Notes under the pieces: generated by a model
What the model was told of the DNA's origin: nothing
Seen by the model: the letters and a program-made list of their open reading frames with translations, nothing else
Database searches by the model: none
Translations under genes and position numbers: made by a program
Part shown: positions 18,785-60,450 of the stretch, piece by piece
Numbering within the stretch: position 1 is the first letter of the stretch
Layout of the letters: each line of letters begins with the position of its first letter
DNA from: Patescibacteria group bacterium
GTDB taxonomy: Bacteria > Patescibacteriota > Saccharimonadia > UBA4664
Length of the DNA: 64,000 nt
Direction: 5' to 3'
Assembly: GCA_028288925.1 (NCBI GenBank)
Contig: JAQGHG010000003.1
Location: 30,500 to 94,499 of the forward strand

Positions 18785-19836
18785 GCGGCCAGAACCACAT
18801 CGGCCAACGCACGCCGCACAGCGTTAATCTCGTCGCGATTCTCGGGTCGGTGTGGCCAGGTTAGGTTTGAAAGGTGTACGAGCGCCGCCTGCCTCTTGGG
18901 GTCAATCACCACGAGGCAGCCGGTAAAACCAGTTTTGCCAAACTTCTGGTCGCTGCCGGCGCCGCCCATTACCTTGGCAAAGTTCAGCTCCCAGCCCAGA
19001 CCGGTACTCTCGCCAAGCCGGGCAATTTGGTTCGTGTGCATTAGGATAATTGTCTCGGGCGTAAAGATCCGCCGGCCGTCCCAGCTACCCTCGTTGAGCA
19101 ATAATTATTCAAACTTCAAAACATCTCCAGTCGTCGAAAACAAGCCCGCGTGACCAGGCGGTTTACCCGATTCCCGTAATGCCCATCCAGCCTCATCGTG
19201 CACGCTCCCCCGTACCTCGCCACGCCAATCTACCTCAGTGGGAGCAACCGCTTCGGCGGGGAGGCCAGGGTGGAACGTCGTGTTCTTCATGCCGAGAGGC
19301 TTAAAAAACAGCTCCTGGGCGACTTCATCAAGGGGCCTGCCGCAAATCCGCTCAACTATCAAGCCCAGCAAGATAGCGGGGGAGTTAGTATAGTGGTAGC
19401 GCTCACCGGGTGGTGCCAGGAGTGGGCAAGTGAATAGTCGCTCTAATAGTTGGTCCGGTGTCTCCCTCGCCACCTTCGCCAACCCTCCTGGTAGGTCAAA
19501 AATCACAGTATAAGTCAGCAGGTGCCGGATCAGTATCCGCTCACGGAATTCATTCTGCAGCTCCGGCACATAGGCAATCGCCTGGTCGTCCAAGGCGACC
19601 CGGCCGTCCTCGAGCAGCTTGAGTATAATCGAGCTAGTCGGTATTGACTTCGTAATAGAAGCCACATCGTATGTCGTCTCCGCGGTGACTGCCGGCGCGC
19701 CCGCTTCGTAGGTGAGGCGCCCAAAGGCTCGCACCTCCGTCTTGCCTCGTCGGATCCATCCCACCGTGCAGCCGGGGAACACCCGCTCGCGGATCGCTCG
19801 CTCACAGATCTGTTCGACCTGAGCGGTTACGCTCAA
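18781..19836 (-). pseudogene. Class-C beta-lactamase / serine-hydrolase family gene interrupted by a single in-frame TAA stop (at 19105-19107).
   Basis: Upstream ORF 19105..19836 carries SITKS (SxxK) and YHYTNS (YxN). The in-frame downstream ORF 18781..19101 carries the KTG box (FGKTGFTG). The two ORFs share one frame and are separated only by TAA. Confidence 0.7.
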
Positions 19837-20819
19837 ACTACCGCGCCCATCGGCCGGGAGCCGCTCTGCCGCTGCCAGGTCGCCGCCGAATCAAACTGCA
19901 GCAGCGCCCGCGCCACACGCGTACGGCCGGCCGCTTGATGCCGGGCCACGGCCTCGGCCAGCGATTCGTGCGACAGCTCCATGTCGTGCAAAAAGAAAGC
20001 GTCGTCGCCGTAAGTACGCAAGAACTGCGCCGAGAAACCACCCGGGCTCAAGGCCTGCACGCGGTGCGCCAGCAGCACTAGAGCCTCGTATTGATCACGC
20101 TGAAGCTTTGAGATACCCTGGAGCGGCCGCGCTGTGTCCAGCGTCCGCTGAAAGCTGCTAGCCAACGTCAAGAATTCCGCGTCCACCCCCAGCAACACAT
20201 CCAGCGCGTCATCCATAGCCTCCGTCTGGGTGGGGGAGACGGTGGCGCGCGCCAGCCGCCGCATATCAACCTCGTGCTTGGCCAAAAACGCTTCCATCGA
20301 CTGCCAGCTCGCCGCCACGCGGTCCTCCAATTCCGTCTTGGGTTTAAGGCCGAAATCTCCCGGCGCCACCTGGCCGGTGTAGTCCACCAATAAGCTCGAC
20401 GGGGGGAGCTCCGCTACCAATGCCCCCACAGCCGTCTCGCTCAGCTCAGAAGTCAGGTAAAGGCTGAAGCAGTTGGCCGGAATCATGCCTAGCTGCTTTG
20501 GCCGCACCAAAAAAGCCGTCGCCTCAGGATCATCATGCGGGGCCTCCGCGGCCAGATTCATGTGCTGCATTTGCGTAATGGTATAGGTATACTTCAAAAT
20601 CTCGACGGCGTTCGTGGAAAATGCCCGCCGGCGCTGCAATGTCCGGGAGAGCTTGAGCCACTGCTTTTGAGCCAAAGGCAGCATAGCCGCGGGTTGGTCG
20701 CATACAATGATAGCCTTCCCCAAATGCTGCCGCGCCTGCAGATGGCGCATTACATCCGCCATCATATTTGCCGCTGCGTTTCGGACGCGCCGCCGGTTCT
20801 CCAGATAATGTACAGCCAT
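19833..20819 (-). CDS. Uncharacterised 328-aa protein, co-operonic with radC and the bla-like gene.
   Basis: No recognisable motif. 4-nt overlap with the downstream gene, 38-nt gap to radC. Confidence 0.5.
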   Translation of the reverse strand: MAVHYLENRRRVRNAAANMMADVMRHLQARQHLGKAIIVCDQPAAMLPLAQKQWLKLSRTLQRRRAFSTNAVEILKYTYTITQMQHMNLAAEAPHDDPEATAFLVRPKQLGMIPANCFSLYLTSELSETAVGALVAELPPSSLLVDYTGQVAPGDFGLKPKTELEDRVAASWQSMEAFLAKHEVDMRRLARATVSPTQTEAMDDALDVLLGVDAEFLTLASSFQRTLDTARPLQGISKLQRDQYEALVLLAHRVQALSPGGFSAQFLRTYGDDAFFLHDMELSHESLAEAVARHQAAGRTRVARALLQFDSAATWQRQSGSRPMGAVV

Positions 20820-29734: not shown

Positions 29735-30352
29735 CTAGAAAATTAAAACCCTTCCATCCTCGATAGCCTCATACTTCATGCCGTGCTGCTTGCAATATTC
29801 GATGCCGCGTTCGATAGCCTTGCTTTCTGGGTGATCGGAGCGCCAATGAGGCATAAAAGCAAAATCCACCAATCCCAGGCCTTCCCAGATGGTATGGTCT
29901 AACTGCTCGTAAGGCATTATGGTCGGGTCGCCTACTACAGCGTAAGGTTTGAGCGACGGAGCCAAAACACACCCGGCTGCGCTATAGCCCGAGTATAGAA
30001 AGTCTGGGTTTGTCGCCTGGCGAATGATGATGTCATCCAGGCCGCTCAGAAACATAGCTTGTCGAAGCACGAACACATTGCCGCCGAGAACAAATACCGC
30101 ACCCTTCGACTCTATTGCCGTTTTCAGACTAGCTTTATCGTCAAAGAAATCACGCAGGTCAATTACTTCCGCATCTAGGCCAAGGTCATCCAAACGTTCG
30201 ATTTTATTCTTGATACTTCTAATTGTGGTTTCATCATCTCTAGGACGGAAATCTAAGGCGTTGGGTATTATTGCGATCTCAGTTCCGGGCGCCAATTGCG
30301 CAAGCTCATCGCTCTTATCGCCAAATTTGAAGGAAGATAAGTAAAACTTCAT
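29735..30352 (-). CDS. Peptidase S51 (dipeptidase E-like) family protein.
   Basis: VLGGNVFVL and the S51-like spacing of Ser/His. Lower GC. Confidence 0.65.
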   Translation of the reverse strand: MKFYLSSFKFGDKSDELAQLAPGTEIAIIPNALDFRPRDDETTIRSIKNKIERLDDLGLDAEVIDLRDFFDDKASLKTAIESKGAVFVLGGNVFVLRQAMFLSGLDDIIIRQATNPDFLYSGYSAAGCVLAPSLKPYAVVGDPTIMPYEQLDHTIWEGLGLVDFAFMPHWRSDHPESKAIERGIEYCKQHGMKYEAIEDGRVLIF

Positions 30353-30430
30353 GCTCTCATCATAACAAAAACGAGGCTGTGATTAGCCTTGCTTTAAGAA
30401 TAATTTCCTGGCTCCGGGTCATATTGGAAA

Positions 30431-30907
30431 TTAGAACTCGGATACTACTTCAGACCGTGAGAATACTTTGAAGCCGGCCTTCATTGCTTCATCTACAAAG
30501 GCTTCATTAAACGAACCATCTCCATGAGATAGATAGAGTATCTTTACTCGTTTTCGCTCGCTCGCTTTGGCGCCATTTAGCCAGTCTTTGATTAGCATCG
30601 GCGATAACTGTGCTCCTTCGATCACGGTGGGCAAGTCAACTTTGTTGAGCCGATCTTCTATTAAGGATTTAATATGAGGCCAATAAGTATGCGCTTCAAT
30701 CTTGTAATCACTAAAGCTGGGCGTGCGCCGATCATGCTTAGCTTGCCAGACGGGGAGTTTAGCGGAGAAATCTTCTTTTGATATAGAGGCATTGTAGGCG
30801 GGCATCAGCCCATCTAGCTCAACGATCTCGGCATGATGCTTGTTGCCAATATGCTTAGCTAGGAAACTTTTTCCTACACCCGGGGCGCCACCGATGAGAT
30901 ATAACAT
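30431..30907 (-). CDS. Small P-loop NTPase / kinase-like protein.
   Basis: Walker A GGAPGVGKS at the N-terminus, 158 aa. Lower GC. Confidence 0.6.
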   Translation of the reverse strand: MLYLIGGAPGVGKSFLAKHIGNKHHAEIVELDGLMPAYNASISKEDFSAKLPVWQAKHDRRTPSFSDYKIEAHTYWPHIKSLIEDRLNKVDLPTVIEGAQLSPMLIKDWLNGAKASERKRVKILYLSHGDGSFNEAFVDEAMKAGFKVFSRSEVVSEF

Positions 30908-30961
30908 AAAGACATGATAACAAAATAAGGCTAAACAGCCTCGTTCTAAAGGGATAATAAC

Positions 30962-31036
30962 TGGCTCCGGAGGTCGGGCTCGAACCGACGACCAATTCGT
31001 TAACAGCGAACTGCTCTACCACTGAGCTACTCCGGA
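30962..31036 (-). tRNA. tRNA-Asn (GTT), with encoded CCA.
   Basis: Reverse complement folds as a cloverleaf: TCCGGAG/CTCCGGA acceptor, GCTC/GAGC D-arm, anticodon loop CTGTTAA, TTCGAGC T-loop, 3' GGAGCCA. Closely resembles E. coli tRNA-Asn. Confidence 0.9.
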
Positions 31037-36832: not shown

Positions 36833-38635
36833 CTAAGTCCCGTTTGTTGTCTGCTTCCGCCACAGCCCCGCGTACCGTCCGCCCAGCGCCAGTAACTCTT
36901 CATGCGCGCCCTGCTCCACGATCCGCCCCTCGTGCATCACGATAATCCGGTCCAGCCCCGCCACCGTACTCAACCGGTGCGCGATCACAATTGCCGTATG
37001 CTTCCCAATAATCTTCGGCAGCGCGCGCTGAATAATCTGCTCGCTCTCGCTGTCGAGCGCGCTCGTGGCTTCGTCAAAAATCATAATCGGCGCGTTCTTC
37101 AGAATCGCCCGCGCGATCACCACCCGCTGCTTCTGGCCGCCGCTCAACTTCACGCCGCGCTCGCCCACTATCGTGCCGTAGCCGTCGGGCAGCCGGGCGA
37201 TAAATTCATGAGCGTGCGCCGCCTCGGCTGCCCGCTCTATTTCCGCCCCACTCGCGCCTTCATCAAAATAGGCGATATTATCGCGAATACTCCGGTGAAA
37301 CAACAAGGGTTCTTGCGGAACGTAGGCAATGCTGCGGCGCAGCTCGCTCTGGCGCACCGCGCGGATATCGGTGCCGTCTACCCGGATCGCGCCGCCCGTC
37401 ACATCATCAAACCGCATCAGCAGGCTCGCCAATGTACTCTTGCCGGCGCCGCTCAGGCCCACGATGCCAATCTGCTCTCCGCCGGCGATCGCGATATTCA
37501 GCCCCTCGAACACCTCAATCCGCCTACCCGTCCCCGAGTGCGATGGGTAGCTAAAGTTCACATTCTCAATCGTAATAGCGCCCTTCGGCACCTCAAGGTT
37601 CTGTGGCTCATCAGGATCGCGTATCGTCTCCCGCTCATTCCCCAAGTAGGCGAGCGTCGGATAGGTCTTGGTGATTAAATCGTCGTGCTTCAAGATAAGG
37701 TTGGGAATCTGGGCCACATTTCGGACAATCTGGAACATGTAGCTCAGCGTCAGGACGATTAACCCGACCGAATCCGGGCGGTGCTTCGCGCTGGCCACCA
37801 CCACAAAGAATGCGGCTGTTACCCCGGCTGCCGTCAAAATACTCCGGGGCATATCCAGGAACGTAGCCGTTTTACGCCGCAGCCAAAACGTCTCTACCTC
37901 TTCTTGGGCTAGCGCGTTCATCTTACTGCGGGATTCCTTCTCTAGACCTCCCGATTTAAGAGCCACGATATTAGTTATCTCATCGGCCACTTCTCCTGTA
38001 ACCTTGCGGAGAATCTCATGCGCCGCCTTGCGGTAGGCGTTTGATTTCGACGACGCCCACATTACATACAAAAATTGCACCAATACGATACCAAAAGCCA
38101 CCAAGCCCAGCCGCCAGTCGGCCGCCAAGAGCACAAACACCGGCACCACGAGCGCCAGCACAATTCCTACGCCATCGCTGCGCAGGAGCCGCACCAGGTC
38201 CATGGTGCCGTCCAAATGCTGCCGGAAGAGGCCGGCCAGGTAGCCGGTTTGGTGGTCACGGTAGAAGGCCATATCCTTCCCGGTCAGCCGGCCGTGGAAG
38301 GAAGGCATGAGCCGGCCATATTCTTTATTCTCGGACCGGGTCGCCACTAGGTCGCCAATCGAGCCAAGCATCGTACCAAACACATACGACCAGAAAAAAT
38401 ACACAATGTTGCGCTTGGCGCTCTCTAAGTCTCCGGCCGCTAGGCTGGACGCGGCCTGCGCCATTAAAACGGTGACATAAATCCGCGTTAGGAACACCCG
38501 TACAATTTCGGTGGCAAACCCAAACCACACCCCCGGCTGCCGACCGTAAGTGGATAGTAAATGACGATAAACAGCTTTATTCACAGCCTCCATAGTACCA
38601 TCCACGAAAAGTCTTGACGTGCTTCCGAGGCGCAC
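36833..38635 (-). CDS. ABC exporter, fused permease and ATPase (MsbA-like).
   Basis: Six-TM N-terminal domain. Walker A GLSGAGKST, signature LSGGQKQRVVIARA, Walker B IMIFDEATSALD. Confidence 0.9.
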   Translation of the reverse strand: MRLGSTSRLFVDGTMEAVNKAVYRHLLSTYGRQPGVWFGFATEIVRVFLTRIYVTVLMAQAASSLAAGDLESAKRNIVYFFWSYVFGTMLGSIGDLVATRSENKEYGRLMPSFHGRLTGKDMAFYRDHQTGYLAGLFRQHLDGTMDLVRLLRSDGVGIVLALVVPVFVLLAADWRLGLVAFGIVLVQFLYVMWASSKSNAYRKAAHEILRKVTGEVADEITNIVALKSGGLEKESRSKMNALAQEEVETFWLRRKTATFLDMPRSILTAAGVTAAFFVVVASAKHRPDSVGLIVLTLSYMFQIVRNVAQIPNLILKHDDLITKTYPTLAYLGNERETIRDPDEPQNLEVPKGAITIENVNFSYPSHSGTGRRIEVFEGLNIAIAGGEQIGIVGLSGAGKSTLASLLMRFDDVTGGAIRVDGTDIRAVRQSELRRSIAYVPQEPLLFHRSIRDNIAYFDEGASGAEIERAAEAAHAHEFIARLPDGYGTIVGERGVKLSGGQKQRVVIARAILKNAPIMIFDEATSALDSESEQIIQRALPKIIGKHTAIVIAHRLSTVAGLDRIIVMHEGRIVEQGAHEELLALGGRYAGLWRKQTTNGT

Positions 38636-38676
38636 TGTTACAATCCAAGCAACACGCAGTAACAGAAGGGGACAAT

Positions 38677-39990
38677 ATGAAAGAGGATACCTATGAGCTC
38701 CTAACGGCTCCCGAGATCGAAGACCGGCTTGGTTCCAAATACTTCTACCGTCAAAAGATCTACCGGTTAGCCGAAGCCGGTCGCGTCCGCAAGTACGCCT
38801 TCCGCGATCAAACCTGCTTTCTGACTTCCGATATCGTCAAAGCCTTTCTCGAGGATCTAGAACAGGCCATCCATAGCCAGCACCCTGATATCGACATGAG
38901 TATGGTACAAGTCATGTACGAGCCCGTAACACGCCGGATAGTGGTGGACGGGTTATTTGGCAAAGGAATCTCCGCCGACACCTCCCGTGAAACCCAAGAA
39001 GACACCCTGCGTAAAATCGCCACCATTAAGGAATGGGAGGCTGATTCGGTTGTTGGAGCCGTTTCGACACAATCAGATCAAGGAGCTGTAACACCCTCTC
39101 TGGATGTCTCCGGTTCGCTCCCGGAAGAGCTGATGTACATCAAAGTCGAAACCGGAGTCGTGGAGGGGGTTGAGGTAAAAAGCTTCATTCTCATTAGCCT
39201 GCCGAGCCTGGCTCAATTCATCGGCGTAAGAACCGATAACTTCAGCCGGTGGATAGCGGGCTCCACATTTAGCGGCTTCATATTAAGCGCCAACGTTCGG
39301 CATCTGAACGGTCCTCAACATAGCGGACCGTGGAAAAAAGGCTTAGAACAGGGGTATGTTCCGCTCCTACCCATGGAGCTGATTCCGGAAGTGCTCATCG
39401 CCGTGAAGCAAGCAAACTTCAAGCCCCAGTTCCCCCAAAAAGCTGAAGTGCTCTATGAACTCGCCAAAACCGCCCTCGAAGCCGTCGGTTTGGGGATCAG
39501 CGGCAACAAACAACAAGCCGCCGAGGCTCTAGCCAAGGTCGGTGAGGGCCTGGGGCTCCAGGAAGCCGACCAAATCATCGCGCTGCTTCGTCAGTACGCC
39601 AACCGGGATTTTCAGGTTCAAACTCACAAAGGCTTTGTCCATAAAGTCAGAAGCACCGGCGGGGATTACCTCATAACCACCGGCACCATCACCGTCGGCG
39701 TTACGGGCAAAAATGCCGCCACTTGGATGAAAATTGGCCAAAAAGAAGGTCTAAAGTCACGCGAACGCCAATCCGCCCGCGAGGTTATGCGGCACGTAGC
39801 GCCGGCCGACAGCGTAGGCATGACCTTCGCCGAAGGCCACTATACTAAGAACCCTGACACTACCGAAGCCATCAAGACCGGTAGACAGGGCAAAAGTTTC
39901 TACCGGCGCCTTAAGGAAGTAGGGCTGCTCGAAGAACCCCGCGATGAAGACAAGCCGGTTACCCTAGAAGTAAGAGGAAAGGTACGGTAA
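38677..39990 (+). CDS. HTH (excisionase/MerR-like HTH_17) DNA-binding domain fused to a roughly 380-aa domain of unknown function.
   Basis: ATG at 38677 with GAAGGGGA SD. N-terminal YELLTAPEIEDRLG...YRLAEAGRVRKYAFRDQTCFLTSDIVKAFL matches the excisionase-family HTH pattern. No recognisable motif in the rest. Slightly lower GC. Confidence 0.55.
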   Translation: MKEDTYELLTAPEIEDRLGSKYFYRQKIYRLAEAGRVRKYAFRDQTCFLTSDIVKAFLEDLEQAIHSQHPDIDMSMVQVMYEPVTRRIVVDGLFGKGISADTSRETQEDTLRKIATIKEWEADSVVGAVSTQSDQGAVTPSLDVSGSLPEELMYIKVETGVVEGVEVKSFILISLPSLAQFIGVRTDNFSRWIAGSTFSGFILSANVRHLNGPQHSGPWKKGLEQGYVPLLPMELIPEVLIAVKQANFKPQFPQKAEVLYELAKTALEAVGLGISGNKQQAAEALAKVGEGLGLQEADQIIALLRQYANRDFQVQTHKGFVHKVRSTGGDYLITTGTITVGVTGKNAATWMKIGQKEGLKSRERQSAREVMRHVAPADSVGMTFAEGHYTKNPDTTEAIKTGRQGKSFYRRLKEVGLLEEPRDEDKPVTLEVRGKVR

Positions 39991-39995
39991 CCCCC

Positions 39996-41156
39996 ATGAC
40001 AAACGCACAATCCCACCCCGACCCTATCGAAGCCCACCGCCGGCTCGGTGGCAAGATCGCTGTCCAGGCTAAGGCCGAGCTCACCGCCGAAGCCCTGGCC
40101 GCGCTGTATACGCCCGGTGTCGGCCAGGCCTCCTCGTACCTGGCCGAGCACCCCGAGGCTGCCCGCGAGCTCACCATCAAGCGCAACAGCTTGGCCGTCA
40201 TCTCCGACGGCTCGGCCGTGCTCGGCCTCGGCAACATCGGCCCTTACGGCGCGCTGCCCGTGATGGAAGGCAAGGCCATGCTCTTCAAGCAGCTCGCCGA
40301 TATCGACGCTTGGCCGCTCGTGCTCGATACCCAAGACACCGAGGGCATCATCGCGGCCGTCAAGGCCGTAGCGCCGGTGTTCGGCGCCATCAACCTGGAA
40401 GACATCGCCGCGCCCGCCTGCTACGAGATCGAGGAGCGCCTCCAGGAAGCCTTGGACATCCCCGTAATGCACGACGACCAACATGCCACCGCCATCATCG
40501 CGCTGGCCGGGCTCATAAATGCTTTCAAGGTGGTAGGCAAGGACCTCCGCGCCGCCCGCGTCGTCATCGTCGGCGCCGGGGCGGCCGGCAGCGCCCTGCT
40601 ACGGTTACTGCTGGATTACGGTCTGAGCGACGTCGTGCTCACCGACTCCAGGGGCATCGTCGAGCCTTCGCGCACCAATCTTGATCCCTACAAGCAGCAG
40701 TGGGCCCGGCTCGGCAACCCCCGTCACCTCACCGGCGATGCCGGCGTAGCGCTGCGAGGCGCCGATGCCGTGGTGGCCGTCTCGGTGCCCGGCGCCGTCA
40801 CGGCCGCGCAGGTCAAAACCATGGCCAAGGACCCGGTGGTTTTCGCGCTGGCCAACCCCACACCCGAAATCATGCCCGAAGACGCCAAAGCGGCCGGCGC
40901 CGCCGTCATCGCCACCGGCCGTTCCGACTTCCCCAATCAGATCAACAACGTACTCGTGTTTCCGGGCATATTCCGCGGCATGCTCGATTCGGGCGTGCGC
41001 GAAGTCACCCCGGCCATCAAACTCCGGGCGGCCCAAGCCCTGGCCGGTCTCGTGCCACATCCTACGGCCGGGCGCATCGTGCCCTCGGCCCTCGATCGCG
41101 AAGTCGCTCTAGCAGTCGCCGCCGCCGTCCAGGAAGTCACCGGGGCTAAGGCTTAG
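39996..41156 (+). CDS. NAD(P)-dependent malic enzyme (short form).
   Basis: ISDGSAVLGLGNIG and VVIVGAGAAG dinucleotide motifs. About 386 aa. Confidence 0.85.
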   Translation: MTNAQSHPDPIEAHRRLGGKIAVQAKAELTAEALAALYTPGVGQASSYLAEHPEAARELTIKRNSLAVISDGSAVLGLGNIGPYGALPVMEGKAMLFKQLADIDAWPLVLDTQDTEGIIAAVKAVAPVFGAINLEDIAAPACYEIEERLQEALDIPVMHDDQHATAIIALAGLINAFKVVGKDLRAARVVIVGAGAAGSALLRLLLDYGLSDVVLTDSRGIVEPSRTNLDPYKQQWARLGNPRHLTGDAGVALRGADAVVAVSVPGAVTAAQVKTMAKDPVVFALANPTPEIMPEDAKAAGAAVIATGRSDFPNQINNVLVFPGIFRGMLDSGVREVTPAIKLRAAQALAGLVPHPTAGRIVPSALDREVALAVAAAVQEVTGAKA

Positions 41157-58822: not shown

Positions 58823-58899
58823 TGGTGGGCCCGGCAGGACTTGAACCTGCGACCAAGCGGTTATGAGCCGCCTGCTCTAACCAACTGAGCTACGGGCCC
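58823..58899 (-). tRNA. tRNA with anticodon CAT, most like tRNA-Ile2 (lysidine type, ileX-like).
   Basis: Reverse complement GGGCCCGTAGCTCAGTTGGTTAGAGCAGGCGGCTCATAACCGCTTGGTCGCAGGTTCAAGTCCTGCCGGGCCCACCA. Strong resemblance to E. coli ileX through the anticodon and T arms. Confidence 0.85.
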
Positions 58900-58934
58900 C
58901 CATAATGCGGGGCAAGTATATTATACTTACGACA

Positions 58935-59741
58935 ATGAAGCTGCGCCATCTGATAATACCACTAGCTCTCGGGGCTTTCCTGAGCCTCGCGCCGCGTCCG
59001 GCCGCCGCTGCTAGCGAAGCCGTTGCCAATATAGCCGTTACGGCGCATCTAGACAAGGCCGGCTCCCTCGACATCACCGAGGCGATCGATTACGACTTCG
59101 GCGATACCGCTCCCCACGACGTCATCCACGGCGTGCCTTTGTCCTACCACGATGATCAGGGCAACAACTTCAACCTCACCTTTAAGCTGCTCTCCGCCAC
59201 CCGGGACGGCGCGCCCCTGCGTGATGCCGCGGCCGCCGACTCAAACGCCGTTCACTTCAATCTCCCCTCCGGATCAGCCGCGGGCACGCGCCACTACGAG
59301 CTGCACTATACGCTCGCCCCAGTGGTCTTCCATGGCGACACGCACGACATCTTCAAACACAACATCACCGGGCTGAGCTGGGCCGTGCCGGTCAACCAGG
59401 TTTCGTTCAAGCTCGACAGCCCCGGCCTCGTATCGGCCGACCTCACCTGCCTCACCGGCGCTCAGGGATCCACCTCTAGCAGCTGCCAGACGTCCCAGGA
59501 CGGAGATCTGCTCACTGTCACGGCCACCGCCCCCATCCCAGCCGGCGAGACCCTCAGTGCCTACTGCAGCTTCCCTCACGATTCCTTCGGTCGTTATCTT
59601 GAGCTAGCCAGGAACCCGCTGGCCTGGCTGCCTTTGGCGCTTGTAGGCCTCGTAGCCGCCGCCTTCCTAGCTATCATCATCACCGGCATCGTCTTCCTGA
59701 TCCGCCGTCATATGCAGCCGCCGGCGCCCCCCGAGTCCTGA
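58935..59741 (+). CDS. Hypothetical exported protein with a C-terminal TM anchor.
   Basis: Signal peptide MKLRHLIIPLALGAFLSLAPRPAAA and a C-terminal helix LVGLVAAAFLAIIITGIVFLI. Confidence 0.5.
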   Translation: MKLRHLIIPLALGAFLSLAPRPAAAASEAVANIAVTAHLDKAGSLDITEAIDYDFGDTAPHDVIHGVPLSYHDDQGNNFNLTFKLLSATRDGAPLRDAAAADSNAVHFNLPSGSAAGTRHYELHYTLAPVVFHGDTHDIFKHNITGLSWAVPVNQVSFKLDSPGLVSADLTCLTGAQGSTSSSCQTSQDGDLLTVTATAPIPAGETLSAYCSFPHDSFGRYLELARNPLAWLPLALVGLVAAAFLAIIITGIVFLIRRHMQPPAPPES

Positions 59742-59754
59742 TATACTAAAACCA

Positions 59755-60156
59755 ATGAAGATCCCCAAACTCCCCCAGCTCAGGCTCACCCTCTCGAGCG
59801 TCGTAAATGTCGTGGGCGTGGCTATCATTGCCTACCTGCTGGTCGTCTTGGCCCAGACCGTCAAGCACAACTACGACATGGGCCGCCAGATCGAAGACCT
59901 CAAGTCGCAAATCACCCTGCTCCAGGATCAAAAAGATTCCCTGGCCTACAGCATCCAGTACTACAAGACCGACTCCTTCCGCGAACGCGAAGCCCGCTCC
60001 AAGCTCGGCCTCCAGCTCCCGGGCGAAAACGTCGTAATCGTGCCCCACGCCAGCTCCACCCCGGCTCTCAATCCCTCCGACACCACCAAACGGCCGCTCG
60101 GTCCACGCTCAAATTTTCAGCAATGGCTCGACTTCCTCACCGGCCGCGACAGCTAG
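59755..60156 (+). CDS. FtsB/DivIC-like septum-formation initiator.
   Basis: Single TM helix plus a coiled coil (IEDLKSQITLLQDQKDSL). Confidence 0.6.
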   Translation: MKIPKLPQLRLTLSSVVNVVGVAIIAYLLVVLAQTVKHNYDMGRQIEDLKSQITLLQDQKDSLAYSIQYYKTDSFREREARSKLGLQLPGENVVIVPHASSTPALNPSDTTKRPLGPRSNFQQWLDFLTGRDS

Positions 60157-60170
60157 CGATCCCGTCAACA

Positions 60171-60199
60171 GTTGACCGGGGCCTCCCAATCTGGTAAAT
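60171..60199 (+). promoter_or_regulatory. Promoter TTGACC-N17-TAAATT for the initiator tRNA.
   Basis: ttgacc at 60171-60176, taaatt about 12 nt upstream of the tRNA 5' end. Confidence 0.4.
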
Positions 60200-60211
60200 T
60201 ATAGCTTGTTG

Positions 60212-60289
60212 CCGCGGGGTGGAGCAGATGGATTAGCTCGCTGGGCTCATAACCCAGAGGTCGTAGGTTCAAGTCCTACCCCCGCTACC
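60212..60289 (+). tRNA. Initiator tRNA-fMet (CAT).
   Basis: CGCGGGGTGGAGCAG...CTGGGCTCATAACCCAG... closely parallels E. coli tRNA-fMet. Three G-C pairs in the anticodon stem, a C1-U72 mismatch, and encoded CCA. Confidence 0.9.
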
Positions 60290-60311
60290 AGAAATTATCC
60301 ACACACAAAAG

Positions 60312-60359
60312 GAGGCCCCTGCGGCCTCCTTTGCATAGGTGCCTCGTACCGTTATAATA
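60312..60359 (+). promoter_or_regulatory. Terminator hairpin (GGAGGCC-cctgc-GGCCTCC-TTT) immediately followed by promoter TTGCAT-N16-TATAAT for the next tRNA.
   Basis: Hairpin at 60312-60333. ttgcat at 60332-60337 and tataat at 60354-60359. Confidence 0.55.
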
Positions 60360-60375
60360 CTCAAAGTCAAAGCCT

Positions 60376-60450
60376 GGCTGCGTAGCTCAGTGGTAGAGCA
60401 GGAGACTCATAAGCTCTTGGTCGGTAGTTCGAATCTACCCGTAGCCACCA
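60376..60450 (+). tRNA. Elongator tRNA-Met (CAT).
   Basis: GGCTGCG...CGTAGCCACCA acceptor as in E. coli elongator tRNA-Met. Anticodon loop CTCATAA. An A31-G39 mismatch is noted in the anticodon stem. Confidence 0.85.

What the first reader, a model, noticed from the sequence alone, without database searches (positions are those of the whole stretch)
38677..39990. Excisionase-type HTH fused to a roughly 380-aa domain with no recognisable motifs
The N-terminal 60 aa match the MerR/excisionase HTH_17 pattern (LLTAPEIEDRLG...YRLAEAGRVRKYAFRDQ...). The remaining 380 aa are unrecognisable to me. The gene has its own strong SD, slightly lower GC than its neighbours, and sits between a convergent ABC exporter and the malic enzyme. 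This architecture (small phage-like DNA-binding head on a large unknown body) is typical of poorly characterised regulators, antirepressor-like or abortive-infection proteins.
Basis: inference. Interest (0 to 1): 0.55.

Follow-up and report, generated by a model that had tools for sequence, protein, structure and literature searches.

The report
Self-regulated CPR regulator with phage-derived body
This gene of an uncultured Saccharibacteria-type bacterium encodes a DNA-binding protein that most likely switches off its own promoter; its large "unknown" part comes partly from phage antirepressor-type proteins, so it is an uncharacterised but fairly ordinary kind of regulator with a directly testable binding site.

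Summary
The ORF is real: 38677-39990 (+), 437 aa, identical to an NCBI "hypothetical protein" of a Patescibacteria MAG. About 50 full-length orthologues (45-57% identity) lie in non-syntenic chromosomal contexts.

The N-terminal head is a divergent MerR/Xis-type winged helix. It falls below the Pfam HTH_17 threshold. Its nearest solved relative by sequence is the repressor TraN/AM32 (E 3e-4).

The "380-aa unknown body" has no Pfam, NCBIfam, PHROG or PADLOC match, but it splits into parts:
- a disordered linker;
- an alpha/beta module with KilA-N-like topology (weak fold evidence only);
- a conserved helical hairpin;
- a ~125-aa C-terminal domain homologous to the C-termini of rare prophage proteins whose N-termini are AntA, Bro-N, Rha or ORF6N modules.

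The proposed HEPN Rx4-6H motif is not conserved.

New finding: an inverted repeat, TGTTACA-N14/15-TGTAACA, overlaps the -10 region and abuts the SD of this gene. Paired half-sites occur upstream of 20/20 evaluated orthologues. They also occur upstream of 6/6 short proteins that share only the N-terminal head.

Best reading: the head binds this operator and represses its own promoter, and the phage-derived body is a partner-binding or sensor part. This is a new variant of a known kind, of moderate interest.

The parts
38614..38619 (+). -35-like hexamer TTGACG of the gene's putative promoter
   Evidence: Read directly from the sequence. It lies 19 nt upstream of TACAAT (38639-38644). TTGACA-like hexamers sit 16-19 nt upstream of the first half-site in many orthologous and head-only loci. 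The consensus scanner allows only 16-18-nt spacers and so missed it.
38636..38664 (.). Operator-like inverted repeat TGTTACA-N15-AGTAACA. The first half-site doubles as an extended -10 (TGtTACAAT). The second half-site ends 1 nt before the SD.
   Evidence: It is the only GTTAC-N12-22-GTAAC in the 64-kb window (0.19 expected). In 21 non-redundant orthologue loci (216 kb), GTTAC-N15-17-GTAAC occurs 15 times, always 23-63 nt upstream of the gene start, against 0.55 expected from shuffles. Paired half-sites occur in 20/20 evaluated full-length loci and in 6/6 head-only loci.
38666..38671 (+). Shine-Dalgarno AAGGGG, 5 nt before the ATG
   Evidence: Orthologues have GGAG or AAGG at the same place, directly after the second half-site.
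38677..39990 (+). CDS, 437 aa plus stop
   Evidence: Orthologue N-termini align to this ATG.
38677..39051 (+). Residues 1-125: MerR/Xis-type winged helix (about 1-65, invariant recognition helix K-Y-F-Y-R-Q-x-x-Y-R), then a three-stranded sheet and a helix. pLDDT is above 90.
   Evidence: The same domain occurs alone in ~175-190-aa proteins.
39052..39117 (+). Residues 126-147: variable, acidic, disordered linker
   Evidence: pLDDT is below 50. Length and sequence vary among orthologues.
39118..39426 (+). Residues 148-250: alpha/beta module (beta-beta-beta, alpha-alpha-alpha, beta-beta, alpha) with KilA-N/Bro-N/AntA-like topology
   Evidence: AF2 models. The best BFVD match is a KilA-N protein of a Nodularia phage (E 0.011, prob 0.84), and Pfam KilA-N was confirmed on its sister-phage copy. 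There is no sequence-level support.
39427..39558 (+). Residues 251-294: strongly conserved Gly/Ala-rich helical hairpin (…LEAVGLxISGNK…AAxxLAxVGxGLGL…)
   Evidence: Many invariant columns but low model confidence (pLDDT 40-67). Its function is unknown.
39559..39936 (+). Residues 295-420: basic (pI 9.4) all-helical C-terminal domain shared with rare phage antirepressor-type proteins
   Evidence: phmmer hits to P0069, P0073, P0074, P0076, P0077 and P0078. Alignments A2, A3 and A5 show invariant Q313, R372 and P376. pLDDT is above 90. pI. No Pfam, PHROG or PDB match for the domain.

Best explanation
The gene encodes a lineage-restricted DNA-binding regulator of the candidate phyla radiation (CPR), mostly found in Saccharimonadia.

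Mechanism proposed:
- The N-terminal MerR/Xis-type winged-helix head is probably a dimer. It recognises two TGTTACA half-sites in inverted orientation, 21-22 bp centre to centre, which is two helical turns. In some orthologues the half-sites are everted at 11 bp, one turn.
- These sites overlap the -10/transcription-start region and abut the ribosome-binding site of the gene's own promoter. The protein would therefore repress its own synthesis.
- The body was acquired from the pool of modular phage 'antirepressor-type' proteins. It is a KilA-N-like alpha/beta module, a conserved helical hairpin and a ~125-aa basic helical C-domain. It most likely provides a second DNA contact or a partner-binding/sensor function that modulates the head.

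Shown:
- gene reality and domain boundaries;
- homology of the C-domain to phage proteins;
- the conserved inverted repeat and its strict association with the head domain.

Inferred:
- that the head itself binds the repeat;
- that binding represses;
- that the middle module is KilA-N-like;
- what the body does.
For: Head is a DNA-binding winged helix:
- The family profile hits TraN/AM32 at E 3.4e-4. TraN is a MerR-like winged-helix repressor solved with DNA (PMC6158623).
- HTH_17 is the commonest sub-threshold Pfam hit among orthologues, and one head-only relative carries PF12728.
- Foldseek matches BldC, Xis, SoxR and GlnR.
- The recognition helix KYFYRQxxYR is invariant over 32 orthologues and in head-only proteins.

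Operator:
- The window has a single GTTAC-N17-GTAAC, at 38637-38663.
- There are 15 perfect repeats in 216 kb of orthologue loci, all just upstream of the gene, against 0.55 expected.
- Half-site density is 24.9 per kb in -80..+10 against 1.27 per kb elsewhere.
- Half-sites are paired in 20/20 evaluated loci.
- Spacer sequences and flanking genes are unrelated between loci.

Link between head and operator:
- Six of six loci encoding proteins that share only residues 1-120 carry a perfect TGTTACA-N14-TGTAACA 2-4 nt before their ATG. No other convergent repeat of this kind occurs in the three 19-20-kb loci; L055 has one everted pair 7.7 kb upstream.

Promoter overlap:
- TTGACA-like -35 hexamers lie 16-19 nt before TACAAT/TACATT inside the first half-site, for example in the window, L018, L021, L023, L051 and L053-55.

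Body is phage-derived:
- C-domain hits have E 7e-8 to 9e-4 against 1.8 billion proteins.
- Those proteins carry AntA, Bro-N, Rha or ORF6N N-termini and match PHROG anti-repressor families.
- They sit in prophage-like contexts. One locus has Bro-N and the C-domain as two adjacent genes.

Chromosomal and stand-alone:
- Flanks are housekeeping genes in the six neighbourhoods read.
- There are no relatives on IMG/VR contigs or in cultured phages.
Against: - No binding experiment exists, so another factor could bind the repeat.
- The repeat could also act as an RNA hairpin in loci where the palindrome is long (L018: -12.7 kcal/mol, z -5.8).
- Promoter hexamers are predictions only. The window's spacer is 19 nt.
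- The middle module's KilA-N assignment rests on one Foldseek hit at E 0.011 with low TM-score and on topology. hhalign and hmmscan give nothing.
- No other target site was found in the 64-kb window, so a wider regulatory role is undemonstrated.
- AF2 gives no information on oligomeric state.
Confidence: 0.6

Rival explanations
1. The inverted repeat is not this protein's operator. It is either an RNA leader hairpin that controls translation or stability next to the SD, or the site of another conserved CPR regulator. The protein's own target would then lie elsewhere.
For: The repeat is palindromic and can fold. In L018 the hairpin is very stable (z -5.8) and in L001 moderately stable (z -1.6). 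The second arm abuts the SD.
Against: - In the window the hairpin is no better than shuffles (-6.4 kcal/mol, z -0.31), and L010 has z +0.58.
- The stem sequence is invariant rather than covarying across genomes of 35-58% GC, while the loop is free.
- The best promoter hexamers put the -10 inside or after the first arm, so that arm would not be transcribed.
- The repeat follows the head domain into a different protein family and different CPR lineages, as expected for autoregulation.
Confidence: 0.15
2. A stand-alone anti-phage or abortive-infection sensor. The phage-derived body would recognise a phage component and the head would trigger a response.
For: The body shares a domain with prophage antirepressor-type proteins. 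Gene GC is lower than its flanks in this genome. Neighbourhoods vary.
Against: - No PADLOC hit.
- No nuclease, NTPase, TIR, HEPN or transmembrane effector. The HEPN motif is not conserved.
- No conserved partner gene.
- In other genomes the gene's GC is within 1-2 points of the flanks, except L009 (35% against 43%).
- One copy in the window.
Confidence: 0.1
3. An antirepressor or regulator of a cryptic prophage or other mobile element integrated here.
For: C-domain relatives are prophage-borne. There is a local GC dip. An IS1595 transposase lies next to one orthologue (L005).
Against: - There is no integrase, phage structural or replication gene, or tRNA target next to the gene in the window.
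- The same holds in L001, L003, L005 and L009.
- The GC dip covers only this one gene.
- No relative was found in 2.9 million IMG/VR contigs or 50,697 phage genomes.
Confidence: 0.05

Closest known systems
TraN (pIP501) / AM32 (pAMbeta1), MerR-like winged-helix repressors (PDB 4p0y, 6g1t)
   Same: They are the only solved structures that the family profile finds by sequence (E 3.4e-4; residues 4-65 align to each of TraN's two winged-helix repeats). TraN is a sequence-specific DNA-binding repressor whose recognition helices enter adjacent major grooves (PMC6158623).
   Different: - TraN is a 120-aa monomer with two fused winged helices that binds an asymmetric site. It is plasmid-borne and part of a T4SS operon.
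- This protein has one winged helix, a symmetric operator that implies a dimer, and a ~310-aa unrelated body. It is chromosomal.
HTH_17 / excisionase-MerR superfamily small DNA binders (BldC, phage Xis)
   Same: The sequence pattern of helix, recognition helix, beta-wing and helix is shared. Foldseek superposes ~50 residues on BldC (6amk, rmsd 2.3-2.8, TMt 0.6) and Pukovnik Xis (4j2n). HTH_17 hits are sub-threshold.
   Different: - It does not reach the Pfam HTH_17 threshold.
- Xis and BldC bind direct repeats head-to-tail and have no large body.
- No integrase partner is present.
- Canonical MerR regulators bind between -35 and -10 of a 19-20-nt spacer promoter and carry a coiled-coil plus effector domain. 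Here the repeat lies from the -10 to the SD.
Modular phage 'antirepressor-type' proteins (AntA, Bro-N, Rha/pRha, ORF6N or KilA-N N-terminal module plus a variable C-terminal module)
   Same: Residues 295-420 are homologous to the C-terminal module of a small set of such proteins. The layout is the same: an alpha/beta module, then a helical C-domain. The best viral fold match over the whole 146-425 model is a KilA-N protein of a Nodularia phage.
   Different: - The middle module has no detectable sequence similarity to AntA, Bro-N, Rha, ORF6N or KilA-N.
- An extra winged-helix head and linker precede it.
- The gene is chromosomal and conserved in CPR genomes, not phage-borne.
- The shared C-domain itself is in no Pfam or PHROG family, and no cultured phage or IMG/VR contig was found to encode it.
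Head-only relatives (~175-190 aa; two are named as Candidatus Gottesmanbacteria hypothetical proteins)
   Same: They share the N-terminal domain (28-38% identity to the window protein's residues 1-125), the invariant FYRQxxYR helix, and an identical TGTTACA-N14-TGTAACA repeat on a TTGACA-N16/17-TACAAT/TACAAA promoter.
   Different: In place of the phage-derived body they have a His/Pro-rich low-complexity stretch and a short C-terminal coiled coil. Two of them head glycosyltransferase clusters.

Membership tests
Pfam HTH_17 (PF12728), excisionase/MerR-type HTH | Score above the Pfam gathering threshold against the HTH_17 model | tested here: not met
   The window protein has no hit at E<=10. 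Four of 32 orthologues hit below threshold, best E 0.0093. One head-only relative carries a precomputed PF12728 hit.
Pfam HTH_17 (PF12728), excisionase/MerR-type HTH | Winged-helix fold: helix, recognition helix, beta-hairpin wing, helix | tested here: met
   The AF2 model has pLDDT above 90 for residues 8-68. Foldseek superposes it on BldC, Xis, SoxR and GlnR. The profile hits the TraN winged-helix domains.
Excisionase (recombination directionality factor) | Small protein encoded next to an integrase in a mobile element | tested here: not met
   The protein is 437 aa. No integrase is present in the window flanks or in L001, L003, L005 or L009.
MerR-family transcription activators | Dyad operator located inside a 19-20-nt -35/-10 spacer, plus a C-terminal coiled-coil and effector-binding domain | tested here: not met
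   The repeat runs from the -10 to the SD, not between -35 and -10. No MerR or MerR_1 Pfam hit. The window promoter does have a 19-nt spacer.
KilA-N / Bro-N / AntA / Rha / ORF6N phage DNA-binding modules | Profile match of residues 148-250 to one of these families | tested here: not met
   hmmscan of 23 members against Pfam and PHROGs found nothing consistent. hhalign against small AntA, Bro-N, Rha and ORF6N profiles and against the Nodularia KilA-N protein gave probabilities below 1%.
KilA-N / Bro-N / AntA / Rha / ORF6N phage DNA-binding modules | alpha+beta fold with N-terminal strands, a helix pair, a beta-hairpin and a C-terminal helix | tested here: inconclusive
   The model's topology fits. 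The top BFVD hit is a KilA-N protein at E 0.011, prob 0.84, but TM-score is only 0.22-0.24. There are no PDB hits.
Phage antirepressor-type proteins carrying the new C-domain (P0069, P0073, P0074, P0076-P0082) | Significant sequence homology over the whole ~125-aa C-terminal domain | tested here: met
   E 7.3e-8 to 8.5e-4 against 1.84 billion proteins. The alignment is nearly gap-free with invariant Q, R and P. A profile built from the window protein's C-domain together with six phage-type ones retrieves further Rha-type and stand-alone members.
HEPN RNases | Conserved Rx4-6H motif in a four-helix domain | tested here: not met
   The H after R372 is Q, K, E, A, T or N in orthologues and the upstream R residues vary. 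There are no HEPN hits by Pfam, PADLOC or Foldseek.
Known anti-phage defence systems (PADLOC) | Match to a defence-system protein model and a conserved system neighbourhood | tested here: not met
   No PADLOC hits at E<=10. The neighbourhood is not conserved.
Autoregulated transcription repressors (functional class) | Sequence-specific binding of the protein to a site overlapping its own promoter | not testable with these tools
   There is comparative evidence only: the repeat is present at every orthologue and follows the head domain into another protein family. It needs EMSA, footprinting or a reporter assay.

The most novel reading that the evidence does not exclude
A phage antirepressor-type module has been domesticated by CPR bacteria and wired to a CPR-specific, self-repressing winged-helix head. 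This would form a one-protein switch. The body would bind a phage or host-derived partner (or DNA) and release the head from the TGTTACA operator. That would couple infection or an episymbiotic signal to transcription of the gene and, in this genome, the directly following malic-enzyme gene. The ~125-aa C-domain would then be a new partner-recognition fold of phage regulatory proteins.
Probability: 0.15. Interest if true: 0.7.

Novelty: new variant of a known kind. Interest (0 to 1): 0.45.

Why it matters
Almost no transcription factor of the candidate phyla radiation has a known binding site. This work yields three things:
- an uncharacterised head domain with an invariant recognition helix;
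- an invariant 7-bp half-site paired with it across at least two CPR lineages. This prediction can be tested in vitro with synthetic DNA and recombinant protein, without cultivating the organism;
- an unannotated ~125-aa domain shared by rare phage antirepressor-type proteins and a chromosomal CPR family, which is a candidate case of domestication of a phage regulatory module.

It is not a new kind of system. Autoregulated winged-helix regulators and modular phage antirepressors are both familiar.

Tried and rejected
**Profile libraries on the window protein**
- Pfam, NCBIfam, PADLOC and PHROGs gave nothing usable. ICEA (E 0.26) and phrog_4970 (E 0.01, unknown function) were discarded as noise.

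**Per-member scans of the body**
- Pfam and PHROGs gave nothing consistent. The AbiEi_3 (0.16), HARP and P22_Cro hits are single or insignificant.

**Structure searches**
- Foldseek against the PDB with the full model and with the 146-425 model returned only spurious long-helix matches for the body: F-BAR, TRPV and designed repeat proteins.
- PDB sequence search with the C-domain profile gave nothing below E 0.5.

**Profile-profile comparison**
- hhalign of the middle module against AntA, Bro-N, Rha and ORF6N N-termini and against the Nodularia KilA-N protein found nothing.

**Phage and viral collections**
- tblastn of the protein and of a phage-type C-domain against 50,697 phage genomes found no match.
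- IMG/VR scans with the family alignment and with the phage-type C-domain alignment found no confirmed relatives.

**Other checks**
- HEPN Rx4-6H: not conserved.
- Paralogues in the window: none.
- Further operator copies in the window: none at 1 mismatch or fewer apart from the promoter site.
- Literature search for a Saccharibacteria antirepressor found nothing relevant.

**Untested lead**
- The Gly-rich hairpin at residues 251-294 might be a tandem helix-hairpin-helix motif. It resembles GhGxxxAxxhh from memory, but no HhH profile hit supports this, so it is left as a lead only.
Full report
**1. The observation**

The longest ORF runs from 38614 to 39990. The real start is the ATG at 38677, which is preceded by AAGGGG (38666-38671). 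All orthologue N-termini align to this start. The product is 437 aa and is identical to the NCBI MAG protein 'hypothetical protein JWN01_136 [Patescibacteria group bacterium]'.

Gene GC is 53.8%, against 60.5% for the 5-kb flanks. GC3 is 60%, against 82% for the next gene. The ABC exporter upstream is on the minus strand with its 5' end towards this gene, so the two are divergent, not convergent. The malic-enzyme gene starts 5 nt after the stop codon on the same strand. No tRNA, integrase or phage gene lies nearby.

**2. The family**

The word-indexed search found 52 clusters. Nearly all are full-length (412-462 aa) at 44-57% identity, and all are unnamed or 'hypothetical'. Their names point to Saccharibacteria and Chromulinivoraceae.

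An exhaustive phmmer search of 1.84 billion representatives found only 27 clusters at E<=1e-3. The family is therefore small.

The GTDB species scan confirmed 8 loci. Most are labelled Saccharibacteria or Saccharimonadales. Three are in MAGs labelled Pacebacteria, Beckwithbacteria and WWE3. The metagenome scan gave 31 further loci.

Neighbouring genes differ in every locus read and are housekeeping genes: Nramp, HAD hydrolase, ValRS, TsaD, Mur ligases, G6PD, S41 peptidase and others. No relative lies on IMG/VR viral contigs or in cultured phages. The window holds one copy. This is a real, selected, chromosomal, stand-alone gene.

**3. Anatomy**

The alignment and two AF2 models divide the protein as follows.

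- **(a) Residues 1-125.** pLDDT is above 90. This is a winged helix followed by a long helix, a three-stranded sheet and another helix.
- **(b) Residues 126-147.** A variable, acidic, disordered linker.
- **(c) Residues 148-250.** An alpha/beta module.
- **(d) Residues 251-294.** A Gly/Ala-rich helical hairpin. Its sequence is very conserved but it is modelled poorly.
- **(e) Residues 295-420.** A confident all-helical domain with pI 9.4.
- **(f) Tail.** A variable tail follows.

**4. The head**

The window protein does not reach Pfam HTH_17. Several weaker lines agree that it belongs to the same superfamily:
- HTH_17 is the family hit by most orthologues, 4 of 32, best E 0.0093.
- One head-only relative carries a precomputed PF12728 hit.
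- The family profile finds both winged-helix repeats of TraN/AM32 in the PDB at E 3.4e-4. TraN is a MerR-like winged-helix repressor solved on its DNA site (PMC6158623).
- Foldseek superposes ~50 residues on BldC and Pukovnik Xis with TMt about 0.6, and ~70-130 alignment columns on SoxR and GlnR with TMt about 0.4. These hits are individually non-significant.

The recognition helix, K-[YF]-F-Y-R-Q-x-x-Y-R, is invariant in every orthologue.

**5. The body**

Pfam, NCBIfam, PHROGs, PADLOC and PDB sequence and fold searches do not recognise it. The exhaustive search did reveal two things.

*First, the C-domain is shared with phage-type proteins.* Residues ~295-420 match the C-termini of six ~240-256-aa proteins, at E 7e-8 to 9e-4 library-wide. 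Their N-termini are bona fide AntA, Bro-N, Phage_pRha or ORF6N domains, and these proteins match PHROG 'anti-repressor' or Rha families. Their C-termini match no Pfam or PHROG family.

The alignment is nearly gap-free over ~125 residues and has invariant Q313, R372 and P376. The contigs of these proteins look like prophages:
- one has an integrase, a pyocin-activator-like gene and tail-like genes;
- one has a phage lysozyme;
- one has SLT, UDG and dCTP deaminase genes.

In one locus, Bro-N and the C-domain are two adjacent genes. The C-domain is therefore an autonomous, rare, unannotated module of phage antirepressor-type proteins.

*Second, the middle module sits where those proteins carry their alpha/beta DNA-binding module.* Its predicted topology fits that class: strands, a helix pair, a hairpin and a helix. 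The best BFVD match of the 146-425 model, over its full length, is a KilA-N protein of a Nodularia phage (E 0.011, prob 0.84). I confirmed Pfam KilA-N on the sister-phage copy. Sequence methods give no support, so this assignment stays inconclusive.

The HEPN-like 'RERQSAREVMRH' is not conserved as Rx4-6H.

**6. The cis element**

Aligning upstream regions by eye showed TGTTACA and TGTAACA in every orthologue.

*In the window.* The repeat is TGTTACA-N15-AGTAACA at 38636-38664. It is the only GTTAC-N12-22-GTAAC in 64 kb, against 0.19 expected.

*Across orthologues.*
- In 21 non-redundant orthologue loci (216 kb), GTTAC-N15-17-GTAAC occurs 15 times. Every occurrence is 23-63 nt before the gene's start. 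Block shuffles give 0.55, with a maximum of 4.
- Half-site density is 24.9 per kb in -80..+10 and 1.27 per kb elsewhere.
- The remaining loci carry an everted pair, GTAAC-N6-GTTAC. All 20 loci with a usable start therefore have paired half-sites.
- Spacer sequences are unrelated between loci, and genome GC ranges from 35 to 58%. The half-sites are thus conserved by selection, not by recent common ancestry.

*Geometry.* Centre-to-centre distances are 21-22 bp or 11 bp, which is two helical turns or one.

*Promoter overlap.* The first half-site reads as an extended -10 (TGtTACAAT or TACATT). A TTGACA-like hexamer lies 16-19 nt upstream in many loci. The second half-site abuts the SD.

**7. Linking the element to the head**

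The exhaustive search also found ~170-190-aa proteins that share only residues 1-120, including the FYRQxxYR helix. They continue into a His/Pro-rich stretch and a short coiled coil. A profile search found about 40 clusters of them, two of which are named as Candidatus Gottesmanbacteria.

All six loci I could read carry a perfect TGTTACA-N14-TGTAACA 2-4 nt before the ATG. In most of them it sits on a near-consensus TTGACA-N16/17-TACAAT/TACAAA promoter. No second convergent repeat of this kind occurs in the three 19-20-kb loci, although L055 has one everted GTAAC-N8-GTTAC pair 7.7 kb upstream.

The repeat thus travels with the head domain, whatever the body, the neighbours or the CPR lineage. 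The simplest explanation is that the head binds it, which is negative autoregulation.

An RNA-hairpin reading is weaker for three reasons:
- hairpin stability is inconsistent (window z -0.31, L010 z +0.58, L018 z -5.8);
- the stem does not covary;
- the predicted -10 lies within the first arm.

**8. Mechanism and confidence**

I put 0.6 on this reading: a self-repressing winged-helix regulator whose phage-derived body adds a partner-binding, sensor or second DNA-binding function.

- *Shown:* domain structure, C-domain homology, and the operator-like repeat with its association to the head.
- *Inferred:* direct binding, repression, a dimeric state, and the role of the body.

The rivals are:
- an RNA hairpin or another factor's binding site (0.15);
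- a defence sensor (0.1);
- a prophage remnant (0.05);
- HEPN (rejected).

**9. Novelty**

The protein cannot be filed as a member of HTH_17, MerR, excisionase, KilA-N/Bro-N/AntA, HEPN or any PADLOC system, because defining features were tested and not met or were inconclusive. It works like an autoregulated MerR/Xis-superfamily DNA binder fused to a phage antirepressor-type module.

That makes it a new variant of a known kind. It has an unannotated head subfamily, an unannotated C-domain and a concrete operator prediction. Interest is moderate (0.45). It is useful for CPR regulatory biology but not surprising in kind.

Noticed in passing
L018 766-1323; L051 674-1222; L052 240-788; L053, L054, L055 10001-~10535: A separate family of ~175-190-aa proteins, two of them named as Candidatus Gottesmanbacteria, shares only the N-terminal head. 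The rest is a His/Pro-rich tract (e.g. HGPHHPPHHGPHDPHHGPPP) and a short C-terminal coiled coil. All six loci carry the same TGTTACA-N14-TGTAACA repeat. In L054 and L055 the gene heads a glycosyltransferase / sugar-nucleotidyltransferase cluster, possibly as an operon.
   Followed up: partly
L014 6311-7075 (also L015 291-1055): In a prophage-like contig, a 112-aa Bro-N protein and a 126-aa stand-alone copy of the new C-domain (P0082) are adjacent separate genes. This is the split form of the fused Bro-N plus C-domain proteins.
   Followed up: partly
window 38903-38931 and 39063-39093: The next-best matches to the 14-nt operator consensus in the whole 64-kb window lie inside the gene's own coding region: TGGTACA-N15-CGTAACA (2 mismatches) and two overlapping 3-mismatch sites. 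They could be auxiliary sites or chance.
   Followed up: no
window 39988-41156: The NAD(P)-malic-enzyme-like gene starts 5 nt after the stop codon on the same strand, with no terminator-like site between. It may be co-transcribed from the autoregulated promoter in this genome. This linkage is absent in the other loci read.
   Followed up: no
window 38593-38635: The longest ORF of the divergent ABC exporter (GTG at 38635) would overlap the -35 hexamer of the neighbouring promoter. An internal Met (MEAVNK…, about 38593) is a more likely start. The two genes share an intergenic region of at most ~80 bp.
   Followed up: no
window 19874-19968 (-): ARAGORN calls a 95-nt 'tRNA-???' with a four-base anticodon (caag). 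It lies within the span of the ORF at 19833-20819. It may be a false positive, a long-variable-arm tRNA or a tRNA-like element.
   Followed up: no
window 58823-60450: Three tRNA-Met(CAT) genes lie within 1.6 kb, one on the minus strand and two on the plus strand. They are presumably the initiator, elongator and tRNA-Ile2(CAT) set.
   Followed up: no
window 30000-31000: A low-GC stretch (45% against a 58% window mean) lies next to tRNA-Asn (30962-31036). It could be an island boundary.
   Followed up: no
L044 170-1159: This orthologue has several in-frame stop codons around residue 73-78 (…FPELS***D*Y…) but keeps a perfect upstream operator. It is either a pseudogene or an assembly error.
   Followed up: no
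L009, L010, L012 (GTDB scan): Full-length orthologues at ~45% identity occur in MAGs labelled Pacebacteria, Beckwithbacteria and WWE3. This suggests transfer among CPR classes, mis-binning or mislabelling. The L009 context is chromosomal (G6PD, GNAT, S41 peptidase, CobW), but there the gene's GC is 35% against 43% for the flanks.
   Followed up: partly
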